Shown: piece after piece, positions 43,565 to 63,871 of the stretch
Layout of the letters: each line of letters starts with the position of its first letter
Position numbering within the stretch: the first letter of the stretch is position 1
NCBI GenBank assembly: GCA_003166025.1
Contig: PMWT01000073.1
Coordinates: forward strand, 8,657 to 72,656
From: Acidimicrobiaceae bacterium
GTDB lineage: Bacteria > Actinomycetota > Acidimicrobiia > Acidimicrobiales > Palsa-688
Reading direction: 5' to 3'
Length of the DNA: 64,000 nt
The notes under the pieces: generated by a model
What the model saw: the letters and a program-made list of their open reading frames with translations, nothing else
Told to the model about the DNA's origin: nothing
Databases searched by the model: none
Program-made: the position numbers and the translations under genes

Positions 43565-43613
43565 TTGCGCTCGGCCCTCGCCGCCATTAGCCTACACGTC
43601 ATATGGCATACCA
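43565..43613 (+). promoter_or_regulatory. Class A promoter-operator module: TTGCGC-N17-TAGCCT-N4-GTCATATGGCATACCA
   Basis: Read directly. It lies about 45 nt upstream of ATG 43659 and has a near-identical counterpart at 49783-49831. Confidence 0.6.
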
Positions 43614-43658
43614 TAGACAGGGCCTACTGGCGCCGGGGCTACGGGAAGGTTGACACCC

Positions 43659-44705
43659 ATGGGCCACCCGCTGCGGTTCGCCATCTTTGGCGCTGGGTTC
43701 TGGTCCCGGTTCCAGCTGGGGGCCTGGCGTGAGCTCGAGGGGGCCGAGTGTGTGGCGGTGTACAACCGGACTCGCTCGAAAGCCGAGGCCCTGGCCAGGG
43801 AGTTCGGCATCCCCGCCGTTTACGACGACCCAAAGGCTCTGCTGGCCAGTGAACGTCTTGACTTCGTCGACATCGTGACCGGTGTCGAGAGCCATGAGGA
43901 GCTGACCTGTCTGGCCGCCGCCGACGGGATAGCCGTGATCTGCCAGAAACCGATGGCACCCTCGGCAGCCGGCGCCGAGGCCATGGTGGCCGAGTGCCAC
44001 GCCGCGGGCGTGCCCCTGCTGGTCCACGAGAACTGGCGCTGGCAAGTCCCGATCAGATATGTGTCCCAGGTGCTCTCCGAGGGCACGATAGGCAAGCCCT
44101 TCCGGGCGCGGGTCGACATGATCTCAGGCCACCCGGTGTTCAAGAACCAACCGTTCTTGCGTGAGCTTGACCAGTTTATCCTGATGGATCTGGGAAGCCA
44201 CATCCTGGACGTGGGCCGGTTCCTGTTCGGTGAGCCCACAAGCGTGTATTGCCAGCACCGGCGGGTGCGCGATGATATCAAAGGCGAAAACGTGGCGACG
44301 GTAATGATGAATACCGAGCGTGATGTCACCGTGCTGTGCGAAATGGCTTATGCCGAGAACCACCTCGAGAGGGAGTGCTTCCCGCAAACGCTCATTTTTG
44401 TCGAGGGCGACCGGGGATCGGTCGAAGTAACGCCTGATTACTGGGTGCGGGTGACAACCGAGGCGGGCACGCTGGCCCGTCGTTGCCCGCCCCCGCGCTA
44501 CCCGTGGGCCGACCCCGGCCACGATATTGTCCACGCCAGCATCGTCCCGTGCCAAGCCAACCTCTTGGCTGCCTTGCGGGACGGCCAGCCGGCGGAAACC
44601 ACAGGTGATGACAATCTGAAGACAGTGCGGCTCGTTTTCGCCGCCTACGCCTCGGCCGGGCTCGACGCCGTGCTCAAGAAGGGCCCGGCCGGCCGGTGGC
44701 TGTGA
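43659..44705 (+). CDS. Gfo/Idh/MocA-family NAD(P)-dependent sugar oxidoreductase
   Basis: LRFAIFGAGFWSRF is the Rossmann motif, followed by ICQKPMA and ENWRW. ATG 43659 is preceded by GGGAAGG. Confidence 0.8.
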   Translation: MGHPLRFAIFGAGFWSRFQLGAWRELEGAECVAVYNRTRSKAEALAREFGIPAVYDDPKALLASERLDFVDIVTGVESHEELTCLAAADGIAVICQKPMAPSAAGAEAMVAECHAAGVPLLVHENWRWQVPIRYVSQVLSEGTIGKPFRARVDMISGHPVFKNQPFLRELDQFILMDLGSHILDVGRFLFGEPTSVYCQHRRVRDDIKGENVATVMMNTERDVTVLCEMAYAENHLERECFPQTLIFVEGDRGSVEVTPDYWVRVTTEAGTLARRCPPPRYPWADPGHDIVHASIVPCQANLLAALRDGQPAETTGDDNLKTVRLVFAAYASAGLDAVLKKGPAGRWL

Positions 44706-44733
44706 GGGAGCCAAAGCAGCGAGGAGGTCGCAA

Positions 44734-45525
44734 ATGGAGACGACAGGCACACTAGAACGTTTTTTCGGCTTGAAGGGTAAGACCGCGCTGGTGACCGGTG
44801 CCGGGGGCGGCCTGGGCTCGGCGCTGGCGGAGGGACTGGCGGGAGCGGGTGCCGCAGTGGCTCTTGCCGATCTACCCGGCTCAGCGGGCCTGCGTGAAGT
44901 GCACGCCCGGCTTGAGCAGGAGGGCTATGCCGTATCCACCGTGGAGGCCGACGTTTCCGACGTGCCGGCTGCGCCGTCGATGGTCCAGCAGGTCGTCGAC
45001 GACCATGGTTCGATCGACATTTTAGTCAATTGTGCCGGCATTAACCGCCGTGAGCCGATCCTTGAGGTCACGCCGGAGATTTTCGACCGGATTACCGGGG
45101 TCAACCTGCGCGGCTTATATTTTTTGAGCCAGGCGGCAGCCCGGGTAATGAAAGACAATGGAGGCGGGAAAATAATTAACATCGGCTCCCTGACTTCGAC
45201 CATCGCATTGTCGGAAGTCTCGGTCTACGGCTGCACCAAGTCGGCTGTGGCGCAGCTGACCAAGACCATGGCCGTCGAGTGGGCGCAATACAACATACAG
45301 GTCAACGCTATTGGACCTGGCTTCATGCGCACCGCTTTGTCGGTCCCGGTGTGGGACAACCCAGCTCGTCGTAGTTGGATGGAGGGCAGGATCCCCATGC
45401 GTAGAGGGGGGCAGCCGGACGAGCTCGTCGCTACAGCCATCCTTCTCGCCAGCCAGGCATCGTCGTACATAAGCGGGCAGATAATCTTCGTCGACGGGGG
45501 TTTCCTGTCAGGCAGCCCCTGGTAG
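44734..45525 (+). CDS. SDR oxidoreductase (gluconate 5-dehydrogenase / KduD-like)
   Basis: TGAGGGLG, NCAG, YGCTKSA, with a GAGGAGG RBS. Confidence 0.8.
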   Translation: METTGTLERFFGLKGKTALVTGAGGGLGSALAEGLAGAGAAVALADLPGSAGLREVHARLEQEGYAVSTVEADVSDVPAAPSMVQQVVDDHGSIDILVNCAGINRREPILEVTPEIFDRITGVNLRGLYFLSQAAARVMKDNGGGKIINIGSLTSTIALSEVSVYGCTKSAVAQLTKTMAVEWAQYNIQVNAIGPGFMRTALSVPVWDNPARRSWMEGRIPMRRGGQPDELVATAILLASQASSYISGQIIFVDGGFLSGSPW

Positions 45526-45565: not shown

Positions 45566-47482
45566 TTATCCCCGGCGAGCCGTGATCACCGCGATTTCGT
45601 GAGGCTGCAACTGGACAGTCCCCGTCAAGGGCCGCCCTTGCTCGGGAACCCCGGCGTGGTCCCCCAGCATCCGCTCGGCCGCGGCAACGTCGAGCAGTTC
45701 GTAGCGGAAGGAAAGGCTGTTCCCCTCGATCTTGAACTCGGTGGCGCTGGGGCGAAGGTTGCCGACAAAGACGGTGACGTCGCCCTCGTCAGCAAGGCCA
45801 AGGACGGTCAGGGCGTTGTCATCGGTCGTTTCGAGATGAACCAATCTGGACCGGCGATGATGAGCCAGGTGGCGGAACACCTCGTAAACCGGGTATAACC
45901 CGAGCGGTGAGGGCGAACCCTCCCCTCCGGGGCTCATCACTCCCCGGGGCCCCACCGTCTCGAAGTAGGTAAGGACCTTCGCCCCTGCCCTGGCCAACGC
46001 GCTTACGCTGCCGAGAGCCCAGCACGCCGCCCACAAGGAGTTCTGGCGAGGGTCCGTCTCCGGTCCGGTTGCCCTCACCTTGTCTGTGGCCACCGGGTTG
46101 AACCGCTGAAGCAGTGTCACCGGTCCTACGTGCAGGGGCAGGCCCTCCGCCATCGAGATCGCTTGGCGGGCGACGATTTCCTGCACGGGGAGGGTCTGGA
46201 GGATTTCCTCGTTGCTGAAGGCGTGCACCTGGGGGTTGACGGCGAAGGTGACGCCGGCAAGGAGGCCGTACGGAGGCTGGGCCCGGTTGAGCTCGACGAA
46301 GTTGGCCCGGCTCCCCCCGAAGATTTCGGGGGTGAGCCGGAGCTCGTCGGCCAGCGACTGCCAGGTTGCCACTAGGGCCGGTGTCGTCACCGACGTGGTC
46401 TTGTCGAACAGCATCAACCGGGCCAGGTTGACGGGCGGGTCGCCCACGGCCTCCGCCAGCGCGCGGGCCACATCGCTCAGCTGGTCGACGTCGTCCACTA
46501 CCACTTCGCACTGGAGCTGGGCACCCACCTCCAGGGCAGTGCCGGCGGCTCGACGAAGGCCTTGCTCCCAGAGCGGTTGGCTGGGTTCTACCACGGCGTG
46601 GAGATGGGCCGGCCCTAATCGGCGCAGGGCTTGTCTGACGTCACCTCGAGCCTCATCATCGCCAACGGTGTTAGCGCCCAAGCCGAGCGCCGGCACCCGG
46701 GCGGCGCTCGCGCTGCCGACGCGGATCTCAATGGGAGCAGAGCGGGCCGGGGCCGCGTGGGAAGGCGTGTGGCCCGAAGCGAGCCGGACGACGACCCGCT
46801 GGCTCAGCTCCTCGCCGGCCTCGAAGGGACGGGGATAGGGCAGGCGCAAGGGCGGGCAATAGGTCTTGAAGGACGCATCGGTCCAGTTGCGCTGGTCCTC
46901 GGTCTCGAACACGTCCCCTTCGAACGAGATGTCCACCTTGGCGTCGCCAACTGAATATGCCATGCCCGTCAGGTCGAAGAACGGCTGCCACGGAGAAACC
47001 TCGGCTGGGAACACGCTTTTCGAAACCCCCGACGTTGACCTCAAGGACAGCGGTTGGCCGGCCACGGCCAGGGGGTGGAGCAGGACCAGGCCTACCCGAT
47101 TGCTCAAAAAGGCCCTCGTGGCGTGGCCGGTCATGGCGTACGTCATCACAGTGGTCCCTTGGTCCAGGGCCCGGACCGCTATTTGGCCGTCCCAGACGAA
47201 GCCGACATCGTCGTTGTCATGCGTGCAACAAAACCGGACCATGGTCTTCCCGGGGGAGATATCGCGGTCGATGCGGCTCAGCGTGGCCGGGACTGTACCC
47301 CAGTTGCGGTCCCTGACCGCCACCAGGACAGCCTGGATGACTTCGGAGCCGGCGCAGCTAACGGCGCGGACCGCCGGCAGCTCCAGGCGCGCCGTCACCT
47401 GGCCGAGCTGCAGGATCTCCGGCGCCCCACCCGCAGTGCCTAGCCCCAGGATCTCTTCGGGTGACTGTGACGGCCCTACCAC
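45566..47482 (-). CDS. Conserved-looking 638-aa protein of unknown function (N-terminal beta-rich part plus C-terminal barrel-like part)
   Basis: It is a long clean ORF with balanced amino-acid composition and a GTG start, and it is the last gene of a three-gene minus-strand operon. I recognise no family motif with confidence. Confidence 0.6.
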   Translation of the reverse strand: MVGPSQSPEEILGLGTAGGAPEILQLGQVTARLELPAVRAVSCAGSEVIQAVLVAVRDRNWGTVPATLSRIDRDISPGKTMVRFCCTHDNDDVGFVWDGQIAVRALDQGTTVMTYAMTGHATRAFLSNRVGLVLLHPLAVAGQPLSLRSTSGVSKSVFPAEVSPWQPFFDLTGMAYSVGDAKVDISFEGDVFETEDQRNWTDASFKTYCPPLRLPYPRPFEAGEELSQRVVVRLASGHTPSHAAPARSAPIEIRVGSASAARVPALGLGANTVGDDEARGDVRQALRRLGPAHLHAVVEPSQPLWEQGLRRAAGTALEVGAQLQCEVVVDDVDQLSDVARALAEAVGDPPVNLARLMLFDKTTSVTTPALVATWQSLADELRLTPEIFGGSRANFVELNRAQPPYGLLAGVTFAVNPQVHAFSNEEILQTLPVQEIVARQAISMAEGLPLHVGPVTLLQRFNPVATDKVRATGPETDPRQNSLWAACWALGSVSALARAGAKVLTYFETVGPRGVMSPGGEGSPSPLGLYPVYEVFRHLAHHRRSRLVHLETTDDNALTVLGLADEGDVTVFVGNLRPSATEFKIEGNSLSFRYELLDVAAAERMLGDHAGVPEQGRPLTGTVQLQPHEIAVITARRG

Positions 47483-47534
47483 GTGACGACCTGGCCTTCA
47501 AAAAGGGCGCCCCGACCTAGTGCTTGAGCCGGCA

Positions 47535-48353
47535 TCAGCTTTGAACGCACAGCAGCTTTTTCAAGTTGTGGACGCTCCGCTCGGCCCATTCGCCTTCGGT
47601 GGCGATGGTCGCTTCAAGGGTCGGGCCTGGCGGCGTCCACAGCTCGATTATGGCGCTCAGGTTGCGGTCACGGGCGCCGAGCTTGTCCAAGAGCCAGGTG
47701 ACGTTCAGCTGTCCTTCGCCGGCCGGCCGCCCCTCGATCTCAAAACCCATCATGTGCCCGGCCCGCCGCACGGCGAAGTCCTTCACGTGCAGGTTGACGG
47801 CGAAGGGGCCAAGCTTGTCGACAACGACACCAGGGCCCTCGAGAGCGCCGAACGAGTTCACCGTGTCCAGGCATATACCGGCCCAGTCGGTCCCGAGCTC
47901 CTGGACCACATGGACCAGCTCGTCGGTTGAGAACTTGTCGTGGTTCTCAATGGCCAGAGTTACCCCCGCGCTTTCGAAGGCGTCTTGTTGGGGCTTCAAG
48001 ATGGAGATGGCTTCGTCCGGGGTGAGCTCACGGCCCTTCTGGGCGATTATGACCCGCAACAAGGGAGAGCCCAGAAGCTGGGCCAGTGAGAGGTACCGGG
48101 CGATGTAGTCGGCGTCGATGCCCCGGGTACCGATTTCTATCGAGACGCCCAAGGCACGTGCACGCGCGGCCAAGGCGTTGAGGTCGTCTTCGGGTAGCTG
48201 GTCGAGGGGCAGGTTGTCCGCCACCTGGAGCACGGGCACACCTAGGGAATGAGCACGCTCGACCAAGTCGAGCACGCCCAAGGTCTGCGCCGGGAGGTGG
48301 CCGGGAACGCCGACGGCCCACGTGTAGGTGTAGGACGAGATCCCGATCCTCAT
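47535..48353 (-). CDS. Sugar(-phosphate) isomerase/epimerase, xylose-isomerase-like TIM barrel
   Basis: MRIGISSYTYTW, LAIENHD, HVKDF, LSAIIELW. Confidence 0.75.
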   Translation of the reverse strand: MRIGISSYTYTWAVGVPGHLPAQTLGVLDLVERAHSLGVPVLQVADNLPLDQLPEDDLNALAARARALGVSIEIGTRGIDADYIARYLSLAQLLGSPLLRVIIAQKGRELTPDEAISILKPQQDAFESAGVTLAIENHDKFSTDELVHVVQELGTDWAGICLDTVNSFGALEGPGVVVDKLGPFAVNLHVKDFAVRRAGHMMGFEIEGRPAGEGQLNVTWLLDKLGARDRNLSAIIELWTPPGPTLEATIATEGEWAERSVHNLKKLLCVQS

Positions 48354-48371
48354 CGGCCCGTACTCGATGGG

Positions 48372-49214
48372 TCAGTCGCCGCCGGTTATCTCCCGAACGC
48401 TTTGCATGATCGACTCGCGCTCGAAGATCTTGAACCAGTCATCCTTGAACAGAGCGCTGCGGGCTTTGTCCAACGCCATCTGAGCGCCGGCCGAGAGCTT
48501 CCAATTGAGCTGCTCGAAGATGATGGCGGTACCGATCTGGAAGTGCCCCATGAGGAAGTCACGCGCTGCCTCTTCGGGGATCCCGGCCTCCACCACACGG
48601 GACAAGCCCTCCCGGATGATGGCGATGCAACCGTTGGTGAGGGTCTCGCTGAGGGCGGGCTCGAGCATCGCCATCTGGTCGACGGTTATCCGGTGCGAGC
48701 GCGTGACGGGGGCGAACATCGTCATGGCCAGCTTCTCCACCTGGTCGGAAATGGGCCCGGCGTCTCCCCAGGCGACGGCGAAGACGATGGCCTGGCGTGC
48801 CAGCCCACCGCCCCAGTAGTCGGCCCGGGCCTCTGGCTCGGTCTCGCTCAGCAGGCTGTAGAGGGGCGGGTGTGTGGGGTGGGTGACATAGCAATTGATA
48901 TCGGAGCGATGCGGTATCCGGTCGGCGGCAATGGCGGCGGGGTCGAGGAACAGCATGCTCGTGCCCCGGTCCAGCTTGGGCACGATGTCCGCTGCCACAT
49001 CGCGCACGATGAAATCGGGAACGGCGAAGATAACGACCTCGGCGCCCTCGAGGCCGGGCTCCGGGTCGACCACCGACAGGCCCATCTCGGCCAGCAAACC
49101 GCGGCCGCGTTCGCCGGGCTCGATCAGGCGGAGCTTGTAAGAGTCGTCGCCCTGCAGGGCCCCGCTGATCCGCCGGCCCATGTTCCCGCCCGCTCCAAGT
49201 ATTGCCACCTGCAT
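48372..49214 (-). CDS. NAD(P)-binding oxidoreductase (Rossmann N-terminus plus helical C-terminal domain, 6PGDH-C-like)
   Basis: MQVAILGAGGNMG is at the N-terminus. ATG 49214 is preceded by GGGAG. The ORF-track GTG 49223 is an alternative start. Confidence 0.65.
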   Translation of the reverse strand: MQVAILGAGGNMGRRISGALQGDDSYKLRLIEPGERGRGLLAEMGLSVVDPEPGLEGAEVVIFAVPDFIVRDVAADIVPKLDRGTSMLFLDPAAIAADRIPHRSDINCYVTHPTHPPLYSLLSETEPEARADYWGGGLARQAIVFAVAWGDAGPISDQVEKLAMTMFAPVTRSHRITVDQMAMLEPALSETLTNGCIAIIREGLSRVVEAGIPEEAARDFLMGHFQIGTAIIFEQLNWKLSAGAQMALDKARSALFKDDWFKIFERESIMQSVREITGGD

Positions 49215-49782
49215 GTTCGTCACTCCCTATGCCGCTGGGCGGGCGTTTGGCCCGCGGGCTCGTCGAAAAGCTATGATCGGACGATCAGTCGGCATGCAGC
49301 ATACCAAAACCTGCTTCCTTAGGTCAAATCACCGGGCCGGCGATTGGTTACCGGCGCCGTCGGCGCGCTTACGCCAGGGCCACGATGACCTCGTCCCGCA
49401 ACAGTTCGAGGGTGCCTCAATTTCTGGCCCCAGCAGCTTGGGCGCTGCCCGTAGGGGAAAGGGCGGCGGTGACCTGTTGCCCAGGATCCTGGAAGAGAAC
49501 TCAAAATGGTGCCCTCGGTACCGTCATTTACTATCGCATCTTCCTTCGTCGACCGGTACTGGCGACATAACCCCGCGACGAGCGACCGTCGACGCTCGGG
49601 GACACCCCGGCCGGGTGCGCGTAGCCGGTACCGGCAACTCCGAGCGTTCCTGTGGTGCGCAGACGGCCGGGCGGTCGCCCGCGCTTAGAAGTCCGAGCGC
49701 CCCGCCTGTAAGGCGCTGGCTGTGGGTGCTGACCGACTGCTGGACCTCAGCCCCGACTAGGTGCGCTAGCGGCTAGCTGCAC

Positions 49783-49831
49783 TTGCGCTTGCTCGGACCG
49801 GGAGATAGTCTAAGTGTCATATGGCATGCCA
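49783..49831 (+). promoter_or_regulatory. Class A promoter-operator module: TTGCGC-N17-TAGTCT-N4-GTCATATGGCATGCCA
   Basis: Read directly. It ends 31 nt upstream of GTG 49863. The core TGGCATGCCA is a perfect 10-bp palindrome. Confidence 0.6.
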
Positions 49832-50903: not shown

Positions 50904-50939
50904 AGGCCGCATGACCCTAGTTGCAAAGGAGAAGGATCT

Positions 50940-54069: not shown

Positions 54070-54098
54070 TTGCACACGATCTGATGGTATGCCAAGCT
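54070..54098 (+). promoter_or_regulatory. Class B promoter-operator module: TTGCAC-ACGATCTGATGGTATGC-CAAGCT
   Basis: Read directly. 23 of 29 positions match 60965-60993. The TGGTATGCCA core sits across the spacer/-10 junction. It lies about 250 nt upstream of the ABC binding-protein start. Confidence 0.5.
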
Positions 54099-54345: not shown

Positions 54346-55437
54346 GTGAAAAGACATTGGTTCACTAGATTGTCCGGCCTCGTTGTTGCCGCCGCACTGC
54401 TCGGGTCGGGCGGCTCGATCGCTTCGACGGCGGCAGGTGCGGCACCGGCCGGTGCCAGCGGTAAATACGTCATCGCTCTCAGCAACTCGTTTTTGGGCAA
54501 CACATGGCGCCAGACGATGGTGAACATCTTCGAGCAGACGGCCAAGACCGCCGAGAGCCAAGGCCTCATCTCGGGCTACAAGGTTGAGAACACTTCAGAC
54601 AATGATGCCACGACTCAGATTTCACAGATCAAGAGCCTTATTCTCGAACATGTCAACGCTCTGTTGATCGATGCCGCGTCACCCACGGCCCTGAACTCGA
54701 CCATCAAGGAGGCGTGCCAGGCCGGCATAACCGTCCTGGTGTTCGACTCGCTGGCCTCGGCCCCTTGCGAGTACAACCTCGCCGATAACTTCAGCCTCTA
54801 CGGCCAAGAGGAGGCGCAGCTGGTCGGGTCGTGCATGCACGGCACCGGCAACGTCATCGTGGCCCAGGGCGTGGTCGGCTCGGCGCCGTCGGAGGAGATC
54901 TACCACCAGCAGCTGGCCGAGCTGAAGATGTTCCCCAAGATCAAAATCGCATCGACGGTGGTGGGCGAGGCGGACAATTCCACGACCGAGCAGGCCATCG
55001 CTAGTGTGTTGCCGAGCCTCCCGACCGTACAGGGGGTGATCACCGGCGGCAGCTCTTACGGCGCCGTGGAGGCGTTCCTCAACGCCAAGCGTCCCCTGCC
55101 TTGCGCCGTGTACGACAATACGGGGCTGGCTCTGCGGTTCTGGATGGCCCAGCACCAAAAGGACGGGTACAACGCCTACTCCTACCGCACCGAGCCCGGG
55201 CAGGCGGCAGCGGCGTTCTGGGAGGCTTTGCAGCTTCTCCAGGGCAAGCACTTCGCCAGGAACCTGACCTTCCCGAACATCGAGGTCACGCCGAGCACGC
55301 TCACCCAGTGGATCAAGGTCGTGCCGTCACAGCAGGTTTGCGCCTGGCTGTGGACTGAAGCACAGTTCAACCAGGAGATAACGGCGATCGCCGCGCACCA
55401 CCTCTACTACCCGCCGATCTCCACATCGACCGTTTGA
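54346..55437 (+). CDS. ABC transporter periplasmic monosaccharide/polyol-binding protein (CUT2, PBP type I)
   Basis: GTG 54346 follows a GGAGGGGAG RBS. The signal peptide is VKRHWFTRLSGLVVAAALLGSGGSIAS. The body is ribose-binding-protein-like (KYVIALSNSFLGNTW). Confidence 0.8.
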   Translation: MKRHWFTRLSGLVVAAALLGSGGSIASTAAGAAPAGASGKYVIALSNSFLGNTWRQTMVNIFEQTAKTAESQGLISGYKVENTSDNDATTQISQIKSLILEHVNALLIDAASPTALNSTIKEACQAGITVLVFDSLASAPCEYNLADNFSLYGQEEAQLVGSCMHGTGNVIVAQGVVGSAPSEEIYHQQLAELKMFPKIKIASTVVGEADNSTTEQAIASVLPSLPTVQGVITGGSSYGAVEAFLNAKRPLPCAVYDNTGLALRFWMAQHQKDGYNAYSYRTEPGQAAAAFWEALQLLQGKHFARNLTFPNIEVTPSTLTQWIKVVPSQQVCAWLWTEAQFNQEITAIAAHHLYYPPISTSTV

Positions 55438-55460
55438 ACAGGCGGGACAACAAGGGCTAA

Positions 55461-57002
55461 GTGAGGCCGCGGCACGTGAGCAAACAGACGGCGAAACGAT
55501 GCCCCTCCGAGGCAGAGGAGGGAGAAGCCCGTGGGGGCGGTTCCCTCCTCTGCCTCAGCGCCATTACCAAGCGCTATGGCAGTACCCAGGCCTTGGACGG
55601 GGTGGACCTTGTGGTCAGGCGGGGCGAAATCCTCGGTATTGTCGGTCACAACGGAGCCGGGAAGAGCACGCTCATGCGGGTCGTGCTCGGTATCACGCGG
55701 TGCGATTCAGGGACCATCGAGTTCAACCACGAGCGCGCCGGCCCGGGCTACTCACTGGCCCAGGCCTACGCCCGGGGCGTCCGCATAGTCTTCCAAGAGC
55801 TCGCCCTGTGCCCATCGCTGCGCGTTTTCGAGAACGTCTACGTGGCCCGGCCCGCGCTCCGGGGCCGGGGCTGGCGCCGTCGCTCTCGCCAGGCGATCGT
55901 CCAAAGTCTTCAGAACGTCTTTCCTGGCAGTCGTATTTCCGCCCGGGCCGGGATCGGCCGCCTTCCTCTCGCTCAGCGCCAAATGGTCGAGATCGCTCAG
56001 GCCGTGATCGGCGGCGAAGAAGAAGTCAGCCTCCTCGTCCTCGACGAACCGACCTCGGCCCTCAGCCGCGAGGCGGCCGAGCAACTCTACGACTTCCTCC
56101 GCCGTCTGCGCGCCGGAGGCGTCTCGACGATAGTCATTTCCCATCGCATGCAGGAGGTGCTCAACAACACGGACCGCACCGTCGTCATGCGTGACGGCCG
56201 CGTGGTCGGCGAGCGGATATCGGCTGAGACAAGCTATGACGAAGTGCTGGCCCTGATGGGAGCGGCGCCGGTCGACGCCGCGGAGGCCTCAAAGGGCAGC
56301 CTGCGACCGGTCGGCGAGCAGATCCTGAGCGTGAGCGTGCTGTCGACGCACCGGCTGTTCGACGTTTCGTTTTCCGTTCGCCGAGGCGAGGTGGTCGGCA
56401 TCGCCGGTCTCGACGGTCAGGGGCAGCAGGACCTGCTGCTCGAACTGTGGAGGTGCCGACGGCGCTGGCGCAGCCGCTCCGTTCGTTGCAGCGGGGAAAT
56501 GGCGTTTGTGACGGGGGACCGCCAGAGGGCAGGTGTTTTTTCTCTTTGGGATCTCAAGCGCAACGCCTCGGCGTCGGCCATGAGCGAGATCAGCTCGCTG
56601 GGCGTCCTGAACGCGCCCAAAGAGCTCGCGCTTGTAGATCGCTGGATCGCCCGCTTGGCTATCCGGGGTCAGCGCTCCTCAGGCATCGACGAGCTCAGCG
56701 GCGGTACGCAGCAAAAAGTCCTGGTAGCCCGGGCGCTGGCCAGCCAGGCCGACCTGGTATTGCTCGATGACCCGTTCCGCGGCGTGGACGTGGCCACCAA
56801 GCACGACACTTACGGCCTGATCCACGAGGAGGCGGACCGGGGACGGGCCTTTGTCTGGTTTTCGACCGAGAACGCTGAGTTCGAGGAATGTGACCGGATC
56901 TACGTCCTACGAGGGGGCCGCATCGCGGCCGAGCTAGCCGGCGCCGAGGCCACCGAGGACAAGCTGATCGCCGCCTCGTTCGGTTCGGGGAAACCGTCAT
57001 GA
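55461..57002 (+). CDS. ABC transporter ATPase, duplicated cassette (CUT2 type)
   Basis: The first cassette has GHNGAGKST, LVLDEPTSAL and ISHR. The second has LSGGTQQKV and LLDDPFRGVD. Candidate starts are GTG 55461 and GTG 55476. Confidence 0.85.
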   Translation: MRPRHVSKQTAKRCPSEAEEGEARGGGSLLCLSAITKRYGSTQALDGVDLVVRRGEILGIVGHNGAGKSTLMRVVLGITRCDSGTIEFNHERAGPGYSLAQAYARGVRIVFQELALCPSLRVFENVYVARPALRGRGWRRRSRQAIVQSLQNVFPGSRISARAGIGRLPLAQRQMVEIAQAVIGGEEEVSLLVLDEPTSALSREAAEQLYDFLRRLRAGGVSTIVISHRMQEVLNNTDRTVVMRDGRVVGERISAETSYDEVLALMGAAPVDAAEASKGSLRPVGEQILSVSVLSTHRLFDVSFSVRRGEVVGIAGLDGQGQQDLLLELWRCRRRWRSRSVRCSGEMAFVTGDRQRAGVFSLWDLKRNASASAMSEISSLGVLNAPKELALVDRWIARLAIRGQRSSGIDELSGGTQQKVLVARALASQADLVLLDDPFRGVDVATKHDTYGLIHEEADRGRAFVWFSTENAEFEECDRIYVLRGGRIAAELAGAEATEDKLIAASFGSGKPS

Positions 57003-57976
57003 TCGTCCCCGCGCCCCGAGAGCGGTTGCGTCACCGGCGCCTGCACGAGCTGGACGACTGGCGACAAACGACGTCGGACGCCCTACCCGCCTTCGCTTTG
57101 GTCGGGATGCTGGTCTGCACCCTCGTCCTCGTCCCCGGGGCTCGCAGTGTGAGCGGCCTGGAGCTGCTCCTTTCCTCGGCTATCCCTCTTGTTATCGCGT
57201 CACTGTCGCAGATGTTCGTTATCGTGCTGGGGGACATCGACCTCGGCACGGGCTACCTCGTGGGCTTGGCCAACGTGATCTCGGCCCGCTTCCTGGAGTC
57301 GAGCCCGGAGGTCGCCGTTGGCTTGTTAATTTTGGTCGTGCTTGCCTACATGGCCGCCGGCGCCCTCATCCATCTCCGCAAGATCCCATCGATAATTGTC
57401 ACTCTCGGAGCGTCGTTCATCTGGCTCGGTTGGGCTCTGGTGATCTTCCCCATACCCGGAGGGGATTCCCCGGGATGGCTGTCGTCCTTGATGAGCTGGG
57501 AACCCTCCTTCGTTCCGGCCGCAGTCGTGTTCGCCTTGGTGATCGCCGCCGTCGGGTACCTCATCACCAATCGCACGGCCTATGGCACGGTGATGCGCGG
57601 CGCCGGTTCCAACCGCCTGGCGGTCACTCGCTACGGCTGGTCGATGCTGCGGGTACGGGTCGTTTGTTACGGCTTGGCCGCGGTGTTCGGCATCATCGCC
57701 GGGCTCGCCCTGACGGGGATCACGTCCTCCGGCGACCCCAACGCGTCGGCCAACTACACCCTGCTCGCCATCGCTTCGGTGATCCTGGGCGGGGGCGAGT
57801 TCGCCGGCGGGCGGGCGCTCCCCGTCGGCACCGTTATGGGGGCGTTCTCCATCTCCCTCGTCGGGCAGCTTCTCGTCTTCTTCAACGTCTCGTCCGCCTA
57901 CCAGGCCGGTGCCCAAGGAATGATCCTCGTCGCCGTCCTGGCCGGGCGAGCGCTGTTGCGGATCGGGGTGCGATGA
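56999..57976 (+). CDS. ABC transporter permease (CUT2, RbsC-like)
   Basis: It is multi-TM (IDLGTGYLVGL). It overlaps the upstream stop by 4 nt. Confidence 0.8.
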   Translation: MIVPAPRERLRHRRLHELDDWRQTTSDALPAFALVGMLVCTLVLVPGARSVSGLELLLSSAIPLVIASLSQMFVIVLGDIDLGTGYLVGLANVISARFLESSPEVAVGLLILVVLAYMAAGALIHLRKIPSIIVTLGASFIWLGWALVIFPIPGGDSPGWLSSLMSWEPSFVPAAVVFALVIAAVGYLITNRTAYGTVMRGAGSNRLAVTRYGWSMLRVRVVCYGLAAVFGIIAGLALTGITSSGDPNASANYTLLAIASVILGGGEFAGGRALPVGTVMGAFSISLVGQLLVFFNVSSAYQAGAQGMILVAVLAGRALLRIGVR

Positions 57977-58962
57977 CGGCGGCCGAGCTCGGGGTGCCCG
58001 CCCCGCATAAACGCAGGGCCTGGGCCACGGCCAAGTCGCTGGCCGTCGAGTTGCCCTGGATATGGGTGTTCCTCGCCGTCGTTGCCATGTGGGCCGGTAT
58101 CGTAGCCGTCTCCGGGCGTGGGCTCCTAGGGACGATGACGGCGGCCATAGCGCTGGCTCCTTTCCTGGTGATCGTCGGTATCGGCCAGATGTTCGTGATT
58201 ACCAGCGGCAATGGCAATATCGACCTTTCCGTCCAGTACACAATGCCGTTGGCGGGTTTTGTCGGCATAAGCGTTATGAGCGGCGGGAGCGGCCGGGCTG
58301 CTCTCGGGGCTCTGGCCGCCATAGGGGTAGGTACCGCCGTTGCCGCCGCCAATCTCTTTTGCATCCTGGTGCTCGCTATCCCGCCCATTGTGGCCACCCT
58401 CAGCGTTGGCCTTATGGCGTACTCGGCCTCCTCGCTCCAGGCCCAGAGTTTCTCGGCCCTACCCGACCCGGGGTTGCACGCCTTCACGGTGAGCAGCGTC
58501 GGGGGCGTTTCCTGGCTTGCCATAGCCTGTGTCGGGCTCGCCCTGGTCGCCGGCGGAGCGCTTCACCGCATGACCTACGGGCGAGCGCTGCAGGCCGTGG
58601 GCCAGAACCGGCGCGCTGCCAGCCTGGCCGGCCTGCCCGTGACAAGGGTCATCATCATCTCTTACGTCGTATGCGGGGTGCTCGCCGCTATCTCGGGCCT
58701 TCTCTTGGCCACTTACGTGTCCCCGTCGGTCTCGATCGGCCAGCCCTACCTGTTGAACTCGATCGCCGTGGTCGTGCTCGGTGGCTCGTTGGTTTCCGGC
58801 GGCCGCTCCAATGTCGTCGGAGTGTGGGGCGGGGCCCTGTTCCTGCTCCTGCTCACGACCCTTCTGAACGTCATGAACATCGCCGTCGCGACCCAGGACA
58901 TCGTCAAGGGTGCTTTGATCATTCTTGTGCTTGCCCTTGTGGGCACGGACCAGGGCTCCTGA
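57973..58962 (+). CDS. ABC transporter permease (CUT2, RbsC-like), second subunit
   Basis: ATG 57973 overlaps the upstream stop (ATGA). It contains NGNIDLSVQYTMPLAG and multiple TM helices. Confidence 0.8.
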   Translation: MTAAELGVPAPHKRRAWATAKSLAVELPWIWVFLAVVAMWAGIVAVSGRGLLGTMTAAIALAPFLVIVGIGQMFVITSGNGNIDLSVQYTMPLAGFVGISVMSGGSGRAALGALAAIGVGTAVAAANLFCILVLAIPPIVATLSVGLMAYSASSLQAQSFSALPDPGLHAFTVSSVGGVSWLAIACVGLALVAGGALHRMTYGRALQAVGQNRRAASLAGLPVTRVIIISYVVCGVLAAISGLLLATYVSPSVSIGQPYLLNSIAVVVLGGSLVSGGRSNVVGVWGGALFLLLLTTLLNVMNIAVATQDIVKGALIILVLALVGTDQGS

Positions 58963-58987
58963 GGGAGCCAGAACGGAGGACGCAGTC

Positions 58988-60022
58988 ATGCGAGCAGCCT
59001 TGACAACGGGGCCGGGGCAGATGGGCCTCTATGACCTGCCGGCCCCCGAGGCTGGTCCTGGGCAGGTGCGGGTCTCGGTCGGCGTCGTAGGCCTGTGCGG
59101 AGGGGACATCCACATATACCGGGGGCAACATCCCTATGCCACCTACCCCCTGGTGCAGGGCCACGAGTTCTGCGGGACAGTGCTTTCGTTCGGGCCCGGT
59201 TACACGGGCGCCCTGCGTCCTGGCGAGCTCGTCGCCATCGAACCTTTGTTGCCCTGCGGCACCTGTTTCGCCTGCCGGCGCCGTCACCCGAACTGTTGTT
59301 CGGAGCTCAAGGTCATGGGCGCGCATGTTGATGGGGCATTGGCGGAGGAAGTCGTGGTGCCTGTCTCTTGTTGCTACCCGGTGGGGGACTTGCCCGCTGA
59401 GCTCGCCGCCCTGGTGGAGCCGGTCTCGATCGGGCTCCAGGCGGTCGTACGCTCGGGCGCGGCGGCCGGGGACCAGGTGCTCGTGCTTGGTGCCGGCCCC
59501 ATCGGGCAGGCCGTCACGATCTGTGCCGCTGACCGGGGCGCTGAGGTGATGGTGGTAGACAAGCTTGCCAACCGACTGGAGCTAGCCTCCCATCTCGGTG
59601 CCAGCCGCGTGGTCGACGTGTCCCACGAGTCGGTCGAAGGGGCGGTCAAGAGCTGGACCTCGGGTGACGGCCCCGCGGTGGTGGTTGAAGCTACGGGTGT
59701 ACCCGCCCTTATCCGCCAGGCGGCCGACGTCGTCGCCCCCTCGGGCACCGTCGTCGTTGTCGGCATATCCATGGAGGACGTGGCCCTCTCCGTCCTCGAC
59801 TTCACTCGTAAGGAGCTCAACATCCTCGGCTCGCGCAATAACGCCGGCCTGTTCGCCGAGGCCGTGGAGACGGTGCGGCGTAGCCCGAAGCGCGTGGCGC
59901 AGCTCATAACCCACCGCTTTCCCTTTGAGGAAGCCCCACGCGCCATGGAGCTACTCCGCGACCACCCCGAGAAAGCCGAAAAGGTGCTGGTGACCTTGGG
60001 CGAGCGGGCCGAAGCCCACTAG
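58988..60022 (+). CDS. Zn-dependent medium-chain alcohol/polyol dehydrogenase
   Basis: GLCGGDIHIY, GHEFCG, CGTCFACRRRHPNCC (structural Zn site), VLGAGPIG. The RBS is GGAGGA. Confidence 0.85.
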   Translation: MRAALTTGPGQMGLYDLPAPEAGPGQVRVSVGVVGLCGGDIHIYRGQHPYATYPLVQGHEFCGTVLSFGPGYTGALRPGELVAIEPLLPCGTCFACRRRHPNCCSELKVMGAHVDGALAEEVVVPVSCCYPVGDLPAELAALVEPVSIGLQAVVRSGAAAGDQVLVLGAGPIGQAVTICAADRGAEVMVVDKLANRLELASHLGASRVVDVSHESVEGAVKSWTSGDGPAVVVEATGVPALIRQAADVVAPSGTVVVVGISMEDVALSVLDFTRKELNILGSRNNAGLFAEAVETVRRSPKRVAQLITHRFPFEEAPRAMELLRDHPEKAEKVLVTLGERAEAH

Positions 60023-60035: not shown

Positions 60036-60842
60036 TCAGGGACGGGTTGCCTCGATTGGTGGTGCCGGCCGTCGGCTCCGGCCGCTGGCCGCCCGCCGGG
60101 CCGCCCCGATGGAGCGCCACATGTCGGCCGAGTCATCGAGGTGGTCGGACATCGCCCGCCGCGCCCCGTCGCTGTCGCCGCGCTCTATGGCGTCCAGTAT
60201 GCGCTTGTGAAACTCGAGCACGAAGCGCCGTCGTTCCTTTTTCACCAGGGTCTCCCGCCTGACCTCCAGGAGCACGTGGCGGATCGAGTCCAGCATGATC
60301 AGGTACATGTCGTTGTGGGTGATCTTGGCTATTGTCCGATGGAACTCGACGTCCTTGACCGACGAGAGCTCGACGGAGTCGGCGGCATCGGCCAACTCTT
60401 GGAACGCGGTGCGAAGCGCATCGAGATCTTCCGGCGTGGCCCGCTCGGCGGCGACGCCGGCGACACGAACCTCGAGCATCTCCCTGACCTCGTGGACCTT
60501 CTCGTAGGAAAAGGGCCCGTCTACGTCATGGCCGCCGCGCGTCTGGATGAAGAGCCGCATGGTCTCGGCTACGTTCTCCTGGCCGATCTGGGTGACTACC
60601 ACACCGCTGCCCGACTTGACCCCCAGCACGCCCTTGCCGCTCAGGACGCGAATAGCCTCCCTCACCACCGTCCTGGACACGCCGAGCTCCTGGCCGATCT
60701 CACGCTCGGGTGGGAGGCGGTCACCAGGCCGGAACTGCTGGGACACGATCATCTCGAGGAGTTGGCTGGCCACGCGGTCAGCCAGCCCGGGATCCCGCTC
60801 AACCCGGGTGAACTGGACTTTGCGCTCGTTGGGTTCAAGCAA
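60036..60842 (-). CDS. GntR-family transcriptional regulator, FadR subfamily (FCD C-terminal domain)
   Basis: LPPEREIGQELGVSRTVVREAIRVLSGKGVL is the winged HTH, followed by a helical FCD-like C-terminus. The start is TTG 60842. Confidence 0.85.
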   Translation of the reverse strand: MLEPNERKVQFTRVERDPGLADRVASQLLEMIVSQQFRPGDRLPPEREIGQELGVSRTVVREAIRVLSGKGVLGVKSGSGVVVTQIGQENVAETMRLFIQTRGGHDVDGPFSYEKVHEVREMLEVRVAGVAAERATPEDLDALRTAFQELADAADSVELSSVKDVEFHRTIAKITHNDMYLIMLDSIRHVLLEVRRETLVKKERRRFVLEFHKRILDAIERGDSDGARRAMSDHLDDSADMWRSIGAARRAASGRSRRPAPPIEATRP

Positions 60843-60964: not shown

Positions 60965-61010
60965 TTGCAGACGGTCTGATGGAATGCCAGAATGCCTCTG
61001 ATGAATGGCA
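60965..61010 (+). promoter_or_regulatory. Class B promoter-operator module TTGCAG-ACGGTCTGATGGAATGC-CAGAAT plus an adjacent degenerate half-copy TCTGATGAATGGCA
   Basis: Read directly. It lies in the divergent region between the GntR gene and the DUF4038-like gene. Confidence 0.5.
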
Positions 61011-61077: not shown

Positions 61078-62382
61078 ATGGACATTCGGGCCGTTGGAAG
61101 AGCCCTGTCGATGGACGGCCAGTCCTTCTTCTACCTGGGTGACACGGCGTGGAGCGCGTTTGCCGACGCCAGAGCGGACGAGTGGAGCTATTACCTCGAC
61201 TACCGCCGTCGCCAGGGGTTCAACGCCGTGCAGGTTTCGCTCCTACCCATATTGCACGATCGCTCACTGAACCCGGATAGTGACCCTGCCTTCGATATCG
61301 ACCAAGTCCAGGAGCACTCCCGCTGGCAGTTCAACGACCGCTACTTCTCCCGGGCGGCCCGGATGGTGGATGAGGCGGCCGAACAAGGAATGATCTGCAC
61401 CCTCGTTGTCGTCTGGTGCTCATACGTGGCCGGCACCTGGGCGTCGGCCCGGTCGCCCCAGTTTGTCATGTCCAACGAGGTGCTGGGCGACTACATGGCC
61501 CGTTGCCAAGAACTGCTCTTGCGTCCCAATGTGGTCTTGGTGGCCAGCGGTGACTCGGGTTTCGTGGCTCCCGAGGAGGAGCCCTTCTACGCAGAGTTGA
61601 TCGAGGGGATGAGGAAGGTCAACCCCCGAGCGGTGATCGGCTGCCACCTTCAGCCTCGAGCCCTCCTGCCGGCTGCGCTGGACAAGCTTGTAGACGTGCT
61701 CATGTACCAGTCGGGGCACCACTTCGAGGAGCAGTCTCTTGGGTGGCGTTTGGCTCAGTACTACTCGTCCTGCCCGCCGCCGCGCCCGACGATCGACATG
61801 GAGCCCTGCTACGAAGGGCACGCCTTGGGGGGCCGGAAGCGTCGCTACCGGGCTGAGGACGTTCGTCGCGTAGTGTGGCAGAGCGTCGTCGCCGGAGCCA
61901 CGGCCGGCGCCGGGTATGCCGCTCATGGCGTGTGGTCATGGCACCGCACGGGCAGTACCTTCACCAACCCGCAGTTCTCCGGCGAGCCCGCCGACTGGCG
62001 TGAAGCTCTGTCGTTCGAGGGAGCACGTGACATGGCCGTGTGCCGCGGCGTCATGGAAGCGGAGCGCCTGGTGGGGACCGAGAATGTCCTGCGCGGCTTG
62101 GTCACGCCGGTGCCGGTGGTGCAAGGCGTGAACACGCACCGTGAGGGCGAAGACGACGTCATGGTCGCCACCAACGGCCAACAAGGGGCCGGTGGTATGG
62201 CTTATCTCGCCCCCGGCCAGGAGGCGCGCCTACCGGTTGCCGCCTCAGAGATCTCCGACATCCGGGCTATCGACCTGCGCACAAGAGCACCAGCAGAGGT
62301 CTCCGCCCGGGGTTCGGCCCCCCGAGAAACACTTGTCACGGCCGGGCCGGCCAGCGGGGATGTTGTCATCGTCTGGAAATAA
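61078..62382 (+). CDS. DUF4038/GH140-like TIM-barrel glycoside hydrolase (putative)
   Basis: The N-terminus GQSFFYLGDTAWSAF...YLDYRRRQGFNAVQV is as I remember for DUF4038. I placed the start at ATG 61078. The ORF-track 5' extension is antisense to the GntR gene. Confidence 0.55.
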   Translation: MDIRAVGRALSMDGQSFFYLGDTAWSAFADARADEWSYYLDYRRRQGFNAVQVSLLPILHDRSLNPDSDPAFDIDQVQEHSRWQFNDRYFSRAARMVDEAAEQGMICTLVVVWCSYVAGTWASARSPQFVMSNEVLGDYMARCQELLLRPNVVLVASGDSGFVAPEEEPFYAELIEGMRKVNPRAVIGCHLQPRALLPAALDKLVDVLMYQSGHHFEEQSLGWRLAQYYSSCPPPRPTIDMEPCYEGHALGGRKRRYRAEDVRRVVWQSVVAGATAGAGYAAHGVWSWHRTGSTFTNPQFSGEPADWREALSFEGARDMAVCRGVMEAERLVGTENVLRGLVTPVPVVQGVNTHREGEDDVMVATNGQQGAGGMAYLAPGQEARLPVAASEISDIRAIDLRTRAPAEVSARGSAPRETLVTAGPASGDVVIVWK

Positions 62383-62485
62383 GCCTGCAAGGGAGGGCAG
62401 GCATGAGCGCAGTTGATGTCCACTTCCGTCACGGACAGTTGCTTCATCTAACAACGTCATCAGTCGCACACAGAAGGGAGACCGA

Positions 62486-63787: not shown

Positions 63788-63833
63788 GACCGACCTGCCT
63801 CACCCGGCCTAGCTAGTTGTCTTTCATGCTCAC

Positions 63834-63871
63834 GTCGCCCGCCGCAACGCCTTATCGGTGCGGCGGGCGAC
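63834..63871 (+). terminator. Perfect 13-bp stem-loop downstream of the CUT1 binding-protein gene
   Basis: GTCGCCCGCCGCA (63834-63846) pairs with TGCGGCGGGCGAC (63859-63871) around a 12-nt loop. No T-tract follows. Confidence 0.4.

What the first reader, a model, noticed from the sequence alone, without database searches (positions are those of the whole stretch)
43565..43613. A duplicated promoter-operator module (class A) heads two operons of the sugar island
Seen in the sequence: 43565-43613 reads TTGCGC-N17-TAGCCT-ACAC-GTCATATGGCATACCA. 49783-49831 reads TTGCGC-N17-TAGTCT-AAGT-GTCATATGGCATGCCA. The -35 hexamers and the spacing are the same. The -10 hexamers differ at one base, and the 16-nt block just downstream differs at one base. 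The N17 spacers are otherwise unrelated. The blocks lie 45 nt upstream of the Gfo/Idh/MocA gene start and 31 nt upstream of the GHMP-kinase operon start. The core TGGCA-TGCCA is a 10-bp palindrome, perfect in the second copy.

Inference: this is a repressor operator positioned at or just after the transcription start. The obvious candidate binder is the GntR/FadR-family regulator at 60036-60842, because FadR-type proteins bind short palindromes. A weaker match (CAGCATACCA, 49297-49306) lies about 85 nt upstream of the divergent minus-strand operon.
Basis: partly seen in the sequence, partly recalled or inferred. Interest (0 to 1): 0.6.

Follow-up and report, generated by a model that had tools for sequence, protein, structure and literature searches.

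The report
GntR repressor operator of apiose genes
The duplicated 49-base module is real. It is a conserved promoter plus a 16-base binding site, most likely for the neighbouring GntR/FCD-type repressor, and it switches a set of operons for eating the plant sugar D-apiose in an uncultured Acidimicrobiales bacterium; this is an ordinary kind of regulation on a pathway whose control has not been described.

Summary
Both modules read as described. The 16-mer GTCATATGGCATRCCA occurs nowhere else in the 5.33-Mb genome, even with one mismatch.

The core TGGNATNCCA occurs 4 times in the window against 0.38 expected. All four sit in promoter regions of one island for D-apiose/apioside catabolism. The only regulator gene in that island is the GntR/FCD gene at 60036-60842.

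A weight matrix built only from other organisms' orthologous loci ranks three window sites as the top 3 of 10.7 million genome positions. The class A layout is TTGCGC, 17-18 nt, TAGYCT/TACTCT, 4 nt, then the 16-nt operator. It recurs in front of the same genes in three other contigs whose spacers are not conserved.

Eleven more promoters carry the same operator inside the spacer and -10 (class B). More distant homologues of the regulator (33-47% identity, Actinomycetes and Chloroflexota) carry the same motif 70-110 nt upstream of their own gene.

The core resembles the E. coli UxuR box (TGGTATACCA). Best reading: a ligand-released repressor operator overlapping the transcription start.

Binding, transcription starts and the inducer are untested. 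The tool that finds sequencing runs was closed, so no read data could be laid.

Verdict: a new member of a known kind, of moderate interest.

The parts
43565..43570 (+). -35-like hexamer TTGCGC of the class A promoter in front of the Gfo/Idh/MocA gene (candidate apiose 1-dehydrogenase)
   Evidence: Read. cTTGCGC is invariant in all 5 class A promoters of alignment A1. It is below the E. coli-type consensus threshold of the promoter scan.
43588..43593 (+). -10-like hexamer TAGCCT (TANNNT type), 17 nt after the -35
   Evidence: The columns TA..CT are invariant across the 5 promoters.
43598..43613 (+). 16-nt operator GTCATA-TGGCATACCA, 4 nt after the -10, so it covers the predicted transcription start
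   Evidence: 24.4 bits with the 16-nt matrix. An orthologous Gfo/Idh/MocA promoter in L033 has the same layout.
49783..49788 (+). -35-like hexamer TTGCGC of the class A promoter of the GHMP kinase operon
49806..49811 (+). -10-like hexamer TAGTCT
   Evidence: It is identical in the GHMP promoters of L029 and L030.
49816..49831 (+). 16-nt operator GTCATA-TGGCATGCCA with a perfect 10-bp palindrome
   Evidence: Top-scoring position in the whole genome (27.4 bits) with a matrix trained only on other organisms' loci.
54070..54098 (+). Class B promoter-operator in front of the ABC sugar-transporter operon: TTGCAC, then ACG, then the operator ATCTGA-TGGTATGCCA. The -10 CAAGCT overlaps the last two bases of the operator.
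   Evidence: 26.2 bits, rank 2 genome-wide; alignment A2 of 11 class B promoters.
60965..60993 (+). Class B promoter-operator between the divergent GntR gene and the apiosidase-like operon: TTGCAG, then ACG, then the operator GTCTGA-TGGAATGCCA. The -10 CAGAAT overlaps the last two bases of the operator.
   Evidence: (25.4 bits, rank 3). It is conserved in L005 and L029.
49290..49327 (-). Promoter of the minus-strand ApnO-like / TIM-barrel / apionate-lactonase operon. On the minus strand it reads TTGACC (49327-49322), 18 nt, TATGCT (49303-49298), then a degenerate core CTGCATGCCG (49299-49290).
   Evidence: Promoter scan. The same TGGTATACTGCATGCCA arrangement lies about 70 nt upstream of the orthologous operon in L022 and L031. 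It scores below 11 bits in the window, so it is weak.
60036..60842 (-). GntR/FCD (FadR-subfamily) regulator, the proposed binder
   Evidence: Pfam GntR 1.8e-20, FCD 1e-27 and FadR_C. The closest solved structures are NanR, PdhR and FadR. The recognition-helix stretch GVSRTVVREA and residues D164, H168, H212 and H234 are invariant in homologues.
43659..45525 (+). Regulated unit 1: Gfo/Idh/MocA oxidoreductase plus a short-chain dehydrogenase
45566..49223 (-). Regulated unit 2 (weak operator): ApnO-like (PGDH_C/KARI_N), xylose-isomerase-like TIM barrel, and a 638-aa apionate-lactonase homologue
   Evidence: Orthologues carry Pfam Apionate_lact_N/M/C. ApnO is KARI-like (PMC13753588).
49863..53980 (+). 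Regulated unit 3: GHMP kinase, cyclase-family protein, RPE-like, SIS, 2-hydroxyacid dehydrogenase
   Evidence: The same gene order lies behind the same class A promoter in L029 and L030.
54346..60022 (+). Regulated unit 4: ABC sugar transporter (binding protein, ATPase, permeases) and a Zn-dependent alcohol dehydrogenase
61079..64000 (+). Regulated unit 5: apiosidase-like hydrolase and a family-1 solute-binding protein. It continues beyond the window with two permeases, an epimerase and an unknown gene.

Best explanation
The 16-nt block (consensus RTCnkA-TGGCATGCCA) is the operator of the GntR/FCD (FadR-subfamily) regulator encoded at 60036-60842.

The regulator probably binds as a dimer to the TGG(C/T)AT(G/A)CCA inverted repeat. 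In the two class A modules the operator starts 4 nt after a TANNNT-type -10 element. It therefore covers about -2 to +14 around the predicted start and would block open-complex formation or promoter escape. In the class B modules (54070-54098 and 60965-60993) the same operator fills the spacer and overlaps the -10, so it would exclude RNA polymerase.

Together these sites put five transcription units of a D-apiose/apioside catabolic island, and probably the regulator gene itself, under one repressor. By analogy with UxuR, NanR, PdhR and FadR, a carboxylate intermediate would bind the metal-containing FCD domain and release the repressor from DNA. D-apionate or a product of it is the likeliest inducer.

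Shown here: the motif, its restriction to the island's promoters, its conservation with the regulator, and its placement relative to conserved -35/-10-like hexamers.

Inferred: physical binding, the transcription starts, repression rather than activation, and the inducer.
For: 1. Specificity. The 16-mer with up to 1 mismatch occurs only at the two sites in 5.33 Mb. TGGNATNCCA occurs 4 times in the window against 0.38 expected. All four are in promoter regions of the island.

2. Independent prediction. A matrix trained on 13 sites from other organisms' contigs ranks window sites 49822, 54085 and 60980 as numbers 1-3 of 10.66 million positions (27.4, 26.2 and 25.4 bits; the next is 20.7). Site 43604 ranks about tenth.

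3. Footprint. In 5 class A promoters from 4 organisms the -35, the -10 and the operator are invariant while the spacers differ (A1). Eleven class B promoters show the same pattern (A2).

4. Only candidate nearby. No other transcription-factor gene lies in the island. The nearest others are a MerR/TetR fusion and a BldD-like gene more than 5 kb upstream, in an unrelated context.

5. Link to the regulator gene.
- Orthologues (64-80% identical in alignment A3) sit in apiose clusters with the motif.
- Homologues at 33-47% identity in uncultured Actinomycetes, Caldilineaceae and Chloroflexota have GTCATACGGCATGCCA, ATCATACGGCATGCCA, GTCAGGTGGTATGCCA, GTCATATGGTATACCA or ATATTATGGTATACCA 73-112 nt upstream of their own start codon.
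- None of 53 more distant, mostly proteobacterial, homologue loci (37% identity or less) has a hit of 15 bits or more there.

6. Family fit. The protein has a GntR wHTH plus an FCD domain. The UxuR operator AAATTGGTATACCAATTT has the same core type (PMC8092373).
Against: - There is no experimental binding, footprint, 5'-end or expression data.
- The proposed -35 and -10 hexamers match the E. coli consensus at only 3 of 6 positions each, and the promoter scan does not call them. Their status rests on conservation and geometry.
- The genome has four other FCD-type GntR genes. One of them could in principle recognise a similar box.
- The conserved 5' extension is on one side only, which a symmetric dimer does not explain.
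- Locus L036 shows no site. In L030 and L033 I found no site directly upstream of the regulator gene, and L032 has only one weaker site (18.3 bits), upstream of its solute-binding-protein operon.
Confidence: 0.85

Rival explanations
1. The box is a real operator, but it is bound by a different transcription factor, for example one of the four other FCD-type GntR paralogues of this genome or an unlinked regulator. The neighbouring GntR would then have other targets.
For: Five FCD-domain genes exist in the genome. Some related loci (L031, L034) carry a second FCD regulator next to apiose genes. No binding data exist.
Against: The motif follows this regulator's orthologues and more distant homologues across phyla, and lies 73-112 nt upstream of their own genes whatever the neighbours are. 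No other transcription-factor gene is in the island.
Confidence: 0.07
2. The local GntR binds the box but acts as an activator or dual regulator at the class A promoters rather than as a simple repressor.
For: The class A -35 and -10 are weak by consensus, as activator-dependent promoters often are. Some FadR-family proteins activate certain promoters (own knowledge: E. coli FadR at fabA).
Against: Activator sites normally lie upstream of or at the -35. Here the box lies downstream of the -10 (class A) or inside the spacer and -10 (class B), where a bound protein would clash with RNA polymerase.
Confidence: 0.05
3. The shared block acts at the RNA level, as a 5'-leader element common to the two transcripts such as a hairpin or a protein- or sRNA-binding site.
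For: In class A the block would be transcribed. The first copy can form a small hairpin (-7.7 kcal/mol, z -5.6).
Against: The second copy has no such fold (z +0.77). In class B promoters the same block lies upstream of the predicted start and would not be transcribed. A 10-bp palindrome with no loop cannot make a stable hairpin.
Confidence: 0.02
4. The resemblance is a by-product of a local sequence duplication, or chance, and has no regulatory role. Alternatively it is a sigma-54 type TGGCA/TTGCA promoter.
For: The two copies are only 6 kb apart. TGGCA and TTGCA resemble the sigma-54 -24 and -12 elements (papers returned).
Against: The spacers and flanks are unrelated, so this is not a duplicated segment. 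The module is conserved in other organisms. Shuffles never reach the observed counts. No sigma-54 gene was found in the genome, which is 92% complete. The order and spacing of TTGCA and TGGCA do not fit -24/-12 geometry.
Confidence: 0.01

Closest known systems
E. coli UxuR/ExuR (FadR-subfamily GntR, FCD domain) and their operator AAATTGGTATACCAATTT
   Same: Same protein architecture (GntR wHTH plus FCD). It is a sugar-acid catabolic regulon. The operator is a 10-bp inverted-repeat core, TGGTATACCA against TGG(C/T)AT(G/A)CCA here, with 8 of 10 positions identical. Window variants TGGTATGCCA and TGGCATACCA are hybrids of the two. The operator works when placed between -35 and -10 (PMC8092373), like class B here. 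The effector is a carboxylate coordinated to the FCD metal.
   Different: There are no AAAT/ATTT flanks. Instead there is a one-sided 5' extension, RTCnkA. C/G is preferred at the fourth and seventh core positions. The organism is from a different phylum, and the pathway is D-apiose rather than hexuronates. I did not compare the protein directly with UxuR. The best solved-structure match is NanR at E 1.5e-20.
E. coli FadR and its palindromic operators (PDB 1HW2, 1H9T)
   Same: Founding member of the subfamily. A dimer binds a palindrome symmetrically, with helix alpha-3 in the major groove and the wing in the minor groove (PMC8012715). Operators overlap core promoters when it represses.
   Different: FadR has the FadR_C acyl-CoA-binding domain, no metal site, and a longer spacer between half-sites (own knowledge). 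The match to the window protein is weak (E 1.7e-11).
E. coli NanR and its (GGTATA)3 operator
   Same: Closest solved structure (6on4, E 1.5e-20). It has a Zn-containing FCD domain and is a carboxylate-induced repressor. Its half-site GGTATA resembles GG(C/T)AT. It binds asymmetrically and has an N-terminal extension (PMC8012715). That offers a precedent for the one-sided flank seen here.
   Different: NanR uses three direct repeats and three cooperating dimers. Here there is a single inverted repeat per promoter. The N-terminal arm here is about 19 residues, against 32 in NanR.
Oxidative D-apiose/D-apionate pathways (Carter et al. 2018, Nat Chem Biol, own knowledge; ApnO study PMC13753588)
   Same: The regulated genes include homologues of apionate lactonase, ApnO (KARI-like), a Gfo/Idh/MocA dehydrogenase and an apiosidase-like hydrolase.
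   Different: In those works, regulators appear only as grey boxes in gene-cluster figures. No paper in the searchable library holds both 'apiose' and 'GntR'. The GHMP-kinase operon is not part of the published routes.

Membership tests
FadR-subfamily (FCD) GntR repressor with its operator | The regulator has an N-terminal GntR winged helix-turn-helix and a C-terminal all-helical FCD/FadR_C domain | tested here: met
   Pfam GntR 1.8e-20, FCD 1e-27, FadR_C 1.2e-8. PDB matches to NanR, PdhR and FadR cover both domains.
FadR-subfamily (FCD) GntR repressor with its operator | FCD metal-binding residues (Asp/Glu plus three His) are conserved | tested here: inconclusive
   D164, H168, H212 and H234 are invariant in 10 homologues. 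Their spacing fits the known FCD metal site as I recall it. I made no structure-based mapping.
FadR-subfamily (FCD) GntR repressor with its operator | The operator is a short inverted repeat of TGG...CCA type | tested here: met
   TGG(C/T)AT(G/A)CCA occurs at 17 aligned sites (counts). The UxuR box core is TGGTATACCA.
FadR-subfamily (FCD) GntR repressor with its operator | The operator overlaps the core promoter of the target operons | tested here: inconclusive
   The geometry relative to conserved -35- and -10-like hexamers fits.
FadR-subfamily (FCD) GntR repressor with its operator | The motif co-occurs with the regulator gene across genomes, including upstream of the regulator itself | tested here: met
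FadR-subfamily (FCD) GntR repressor with its operator | The protein binds the site and an effector releases it | not testable with these tools
   Needs EMSA, footprinting or a reporter assay.
UxuR/ExuR box proper | An 18-bp AAATTGGTATACCAATTT-type palindrome with AT-rich symmetric flanks | tested here: not met
   The core is similar (8 of 10). The flanks here are RTCnkA on one side only and not conserved on the other.
NanR-type repeat operator | Two or three direct GGTATA repeats at fixed spacing | tested here: not met
   There is a single inverted repeat per promoter. No direct repeats appear in A1 or A2.
Sigma-54 promoter | GG and GC elements 10 nt apart (-24/-12), and an rpoN gene in the genome | tested here: not met
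   No Sigma54_DBD match in the genome, which is 92% complete. TTGCA lies upstream of TGGCA at the wrong spacing.

The most novel reading that the evidence does not exclude
This GntR/FCD clade is a dedicated D-apionate (or apiose-pathway) sensor, conserved across Actinomycetota and Chloroflexota. It may read its operator asymmetrically. The invariant 5' extension (T at -5 in 16 of 17 sites, A at -1 in 17 of 17) always lies on the promoter-upstream side. It would be contacted by the conserved N-terminal arm (VQFTRVERD, with F11 and R16 invariant) of one subunit, a binding mode between the symmetric FadR mode and the asymmetric NanR mode. If so, the protein and box would form a ready-made biosensor for a rare branched sugar acid, and would be the first described regulator of apiose catabolism.
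Probability: 0.3. Interest if true: 0.5.

Novelty: new member of a known kind. Interest (0 to 1): 0.35.

Why it matters
The finding defines a compact regulon of five transcription units plus the regulator, with a sharp 16-nt operator, for D-apiose/apioside use. It does so in an uncultured bog Acidimicrobiales lineage, from sequence alone.

The regulon ties the unassigned operon of GHMP kinase, cyclase, RPE, SIS and 2-hydroxyacid dehydrogenase to the apiose pathway by shared control. That is independent support for a missing branch of the pathway.

The operator also gives real promoter examples for Acidimicrobiia: -35 TTGC(A/G)C and -10 TANNNT or CANNNT.

The regulator-operator pair could be turned into a biosensor for apionate-type sugar acids. 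The mechanism itself is textbook.

Tried and rejected
- **Loose pattern across relatives.** TCNNAYGGNATNCCA across 41 related genomes was too permissive. Scattered chance hits (mostly GGGAT variants) appeared in 27 genomes, so the counts do not discriminate. Only G000 has four hits, all on one contig.
- **Literature search for the literal cores.** It returned primers and sigma-54 papers, and no operator.
- **Other high-scoring genome sites.** C28:20769, C38 and C118:76548 lie inside coding-like ORFs and are probably chance. C118:77252, upstream of a 2Fe-2S ferredoxin gene, has two mismatches and is uncertain.
- **C239:4870.** This is a perfect 14-bp palindrome in a non-coding stretch beside a scaffold gap. 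Its downstream 701-aa secreted protein has no Pfam or PDB match, so regulon membership is undecided.
- **Promoter consensus scan.** It does not call the class A or class B promoters.
- **Sigma-54 and RNA-hairpin readings.** Both rejected.
- **A symmetric 20-22-bp palindrome** (GTCTA-core-TAGAC). Only site 43598-43618 and C239 show it, so it is not general.

Full report
**1. Observation**

Reading the window confirms both modules letter for letter.
- First copy: TTGCGC (43565-43570), 17 nt, TAGCCT (43588-43593), ACAC, GTCATATGGCATACCA (43598-43613).
- Second copy: TTGCGC (49783-49788), 17 nt, TAGTCT (49806-49811), AAGT, GTCATATGGCATGCCA (49816-49831).

The first block ends 45 nt before ATG 43659, which has a GGGAAGG ribosome-binding site. 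The second ends 31 nt before GTG 49863.

The window is contig C118:8657-72656 of a 5.33-Mb, 67% GC, 248-contig genome. In that whole genome the 16-mer with up to one mismatch occurs only at these two places. In the window, 4 matches with up to 3 mismatches compare with 0.36 expected. The core TGGNATNCCA occurs 4 times against 0.38 expected, and no shuffle out of 100 reaches 4. Genome-wide there are 23 such cores, five of them within 24 kb of C118.

**2. Context**

The organism is an uncultured Acidimicrobiales bacterium. A bog MAG labelled 'Candidatus Changshengia sp.' carries a 99% identical regulator.

From 43.6 kb to about 77 kb of the contig lies a sugar island:
- a Gfo/Idh/MocA oxidoreductase and an SDR;
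- on the minus strand, a PGDH_C/KARI_N protein, a xylose-isomerase-like TIM barrel and a 638-aa protein;
- a GHMP kinase, cyclase, RPE-like, SIS and 2-hydroxyacid dehydrogenase;
- an ABC sugar transporter and a Zn-ADH;
- a GntR/FCD regulator (60036-60842, minus strand);
- an apiosidase-like hydrolase with a second ABC system.

Orthologues of the 638-aa protein carry Pfam Apionate_lact_N/M/C. The PGDH_C/KARI-like protein fits D-apionate oxidoisomerase, ApnO, which is KARI-like (PMC13753588). The island therefore serves D-apiose/apioside catabolism.

The GntR/FCD gene is the only transcription-factor gene in it. The nearest others, a MerR+TetR fusion and a BldD-like gene, lie 6-9 kb upstream beside hopanoid and aldehyde-dehydrogenase genes.

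**3. The motif marks the island's promoters**

The four perfect cores in the window lie upstream of the following genes:
- the Gfo/Idh/MocA gene (43604);
- the GHMP-kinase operon (49822);
- the ABC transporter operon (54085; its real start is GTG 54346);
- the apiosidase-like operon, divergent from the regulator gene (60980).

All share a conserved 5' extension. In 17 aligned sites the counts are T at -5 in 16, C at -4 in 12, G or T at -2 in 17, and A at -1 in 17. The 3' side is not conserved.

**4. Conservation elsewhere**

The regulator has a clear orthologue group (63-94% identity), followed by a drop to about 53%. I fetched nine orthologous loci from other MAGs and metagenomes.

Class A. 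The GHMP-kinase operons of L029 and L030 and the Gfo/Idh/MocA gene of L033 are preceded by cTTGCGC, 18 nt, TAGTCT or TACTCT, 4 nt, then GTCCTA/CTTATA-TGGCATGCCA. In the 5-sequence alignment the -35, the -10 (TA..CT) and the operator columns are invariant, while the spacers differ (A1).

Class B. Eleven further promoters read cTTGCAc, 9 nt that include the extension, the core, and then a -10-like CANNNT whose first two bases are the last two of the core. The -35 to -10 spacing is exactly 17 nt (A2).

A third layout precedes the ApnO-like operon in the window, L022 and L031: TTGACy, 16-18 nt, TAT(A/G)CT, then GCATGCC(A/G). The operator-like piece is the adjacent degenerate core at 49290-49299, whose last two bases overlap that -10.

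**5. Independent prediction test**

A 20-column weight matrix was built only from 13 sites in other organisms' contigs and used to scan both strands of the whole genome. The three best of 10.66 million positions were window sites 49822 (27.4 bits), 54085 (26.2) and 60980 (25.4). The next were 20.7 (C239) and 20.5 (a coding site). Site 43604 scored 15.3, about tenth. It was penalised because no training site had A at the seventh core position.

**6. Link to the regulator**

More distant homologues were collected from named genome records. In uncultured Actinomycetes (46-47% identity) the best site of the whole 12-kb locus lies 73-79 nt upstream of the regulator's own start: GTCATACGGCATGCCA and ATCATACGGCATGCCA, at 24.0 and 24.7 bits.

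The same holds in three other records:
- a Caldilineaceae record (42% identity): GTCAGGTGGTATGCCA;
- one Chloroflexota record (33%): GTCATATGGTATACCA;
- another Chloroflexota record (33%): ATATTATGGTATACCA.

In 53 more distant, mostly proteobacterial, homologue loci no upstream hit reaches 15 bits.

Homologues at 47-49% identity (P0024, P0053) also sit beside apionate-lactonase genes and have related boxes such as GTCATACCGCATGCCA.

The helix-turn-helix stretch GVSRTVVREA is invariant in all ten aligned homologues, as are D164, H168, H212 and H234 of the FCD domain.

**7. Comparison with known systems**

The closest solved structures are NanR, a DgoR-like regulator, PdhR and FadR. The E. coli UxuR operator is AAATTGGTATACCAATTT, and it represses when placed between -35 and -10 (PMC8092373). 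Its core differs from TGGCATGCCA only at the symmetric fourth and seventh positions. The window's own variants, TGGTATGCCA and TGGCATACCA, are intermediates between the two.

FadR binds palindromes symmetrically. NanR binds GGTATA repeats asymmetrically with help from an N-terminal extension, contains Zn2+, and is released by its carboxylate effector (PMC8012715).

This system works like those. It is not a UxuR box proper, because the flanks differ. It is not a NanR-type repeat operator either.

**8. Rivals**

- **Another binder.** Four other FCD genes exist, so this cannot be excluded without biochemistry. The autoregulatory association argues against it.
- **Activator role.** It fits poorly with boxes placed downstream of the -10 or inside the spacer.
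- **RNA-level role.** It fails because only one copy folds, and class B boxes would not be transcribed.
- **Sigma-54.** Excluded by geometry and by the absence of an rpoN match.
- **Segmental duplication.** Excluded by the unrelated spacers.

**9. Limits**

There are no transcription starts, no binding data and no expression data. The -35 and -10 hexamers are weak by the E. coli consensus and are not called by the scan. They rest on conservation and spacing. The one-sided extension is unexplained.

**10. Verdict**

The finding is genuine and well supported. Mechanistically it is ordinary: a FadR-subfamily GntR repressor operator defining a D-apiose regulon. No paper in the searchable library links apiose to a GntR regulator.

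Earlier notes of this scan on the same window had already described the class B module and the apiose context. My analysis reached the same reading independently and tested it.

Noticed in passing
window 45566-47482 (-): The local Pfam copy gives no family for the 638-aa protein. Its orthologues in fetched loci carry Apionate_lact_N/M/C, so it is an apionate-lactonase homologue.
   Followed up: partly
window 49863-53980 (+): The operon of GHMP kinase, cyclase, RPE-like, SIS and 2-hydroxyacid dehydrogenase shares the operator and is syntenic in L029 and L030. It is not part of the published apiose routes. Other loci (L031, L034, L068) have a DUF1537-type kinase and an aldolase instead, which suggests alternative downstream branches.
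   Followed up: partly
G000 contig C239:4866-4879 (locus L002): A perfect 14-bp palindrome TATGGCATGCCATA (20.7 bits) lies in a roughly 2-kb stretch without coding-like ORFs, next to an NN scaffold gap. It is about 480 nt upstream of a 701-aa secreted protein with no Pfam or PDB match. It may be an outlying regulon member.
   Followed up: partly
window 54099-54345: If the class B promoter is used, the transporter operon has a leader of about 240 nt of lower GC content. The leader contains the palindrome GGCATATGCC (54118-54127), which is the operator half-sites with 2 extra central bases.
   Followed up: no
window 60988-61016: Just after the class B operator, GAATGCC is repeated (GAATGCCAGAATGCC). 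It is followed by TCTGATGAATGGCAACGG, a stretch conserved in L005 and L029. It may be a second weak box or a leader element.
   Followed up: no
window 43529-43538: A partial core GGGCATGCCG lies 27 nt upstream of the class A -35 of the Gfo/Idh/MocA promoter. It could be an auxiliary site.
   Followed up: no
window 34794-35687 (-): One open frame hits both MerR_1 (residues 44-111) and TetR_N (135-182), which would be an unusual fusion of two DNA-binding modules. It lies next to hopanoid and squalene genes.
   Followed up: no
L031 1916-1998 and L034 796-1545: Some related loci carry a second FCD-type GntR beside the apiosidase cluster, with boxes of slightly different type (TAGTATACCA, TGGCATTCCA) in its upstream region.
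   Followed up: no
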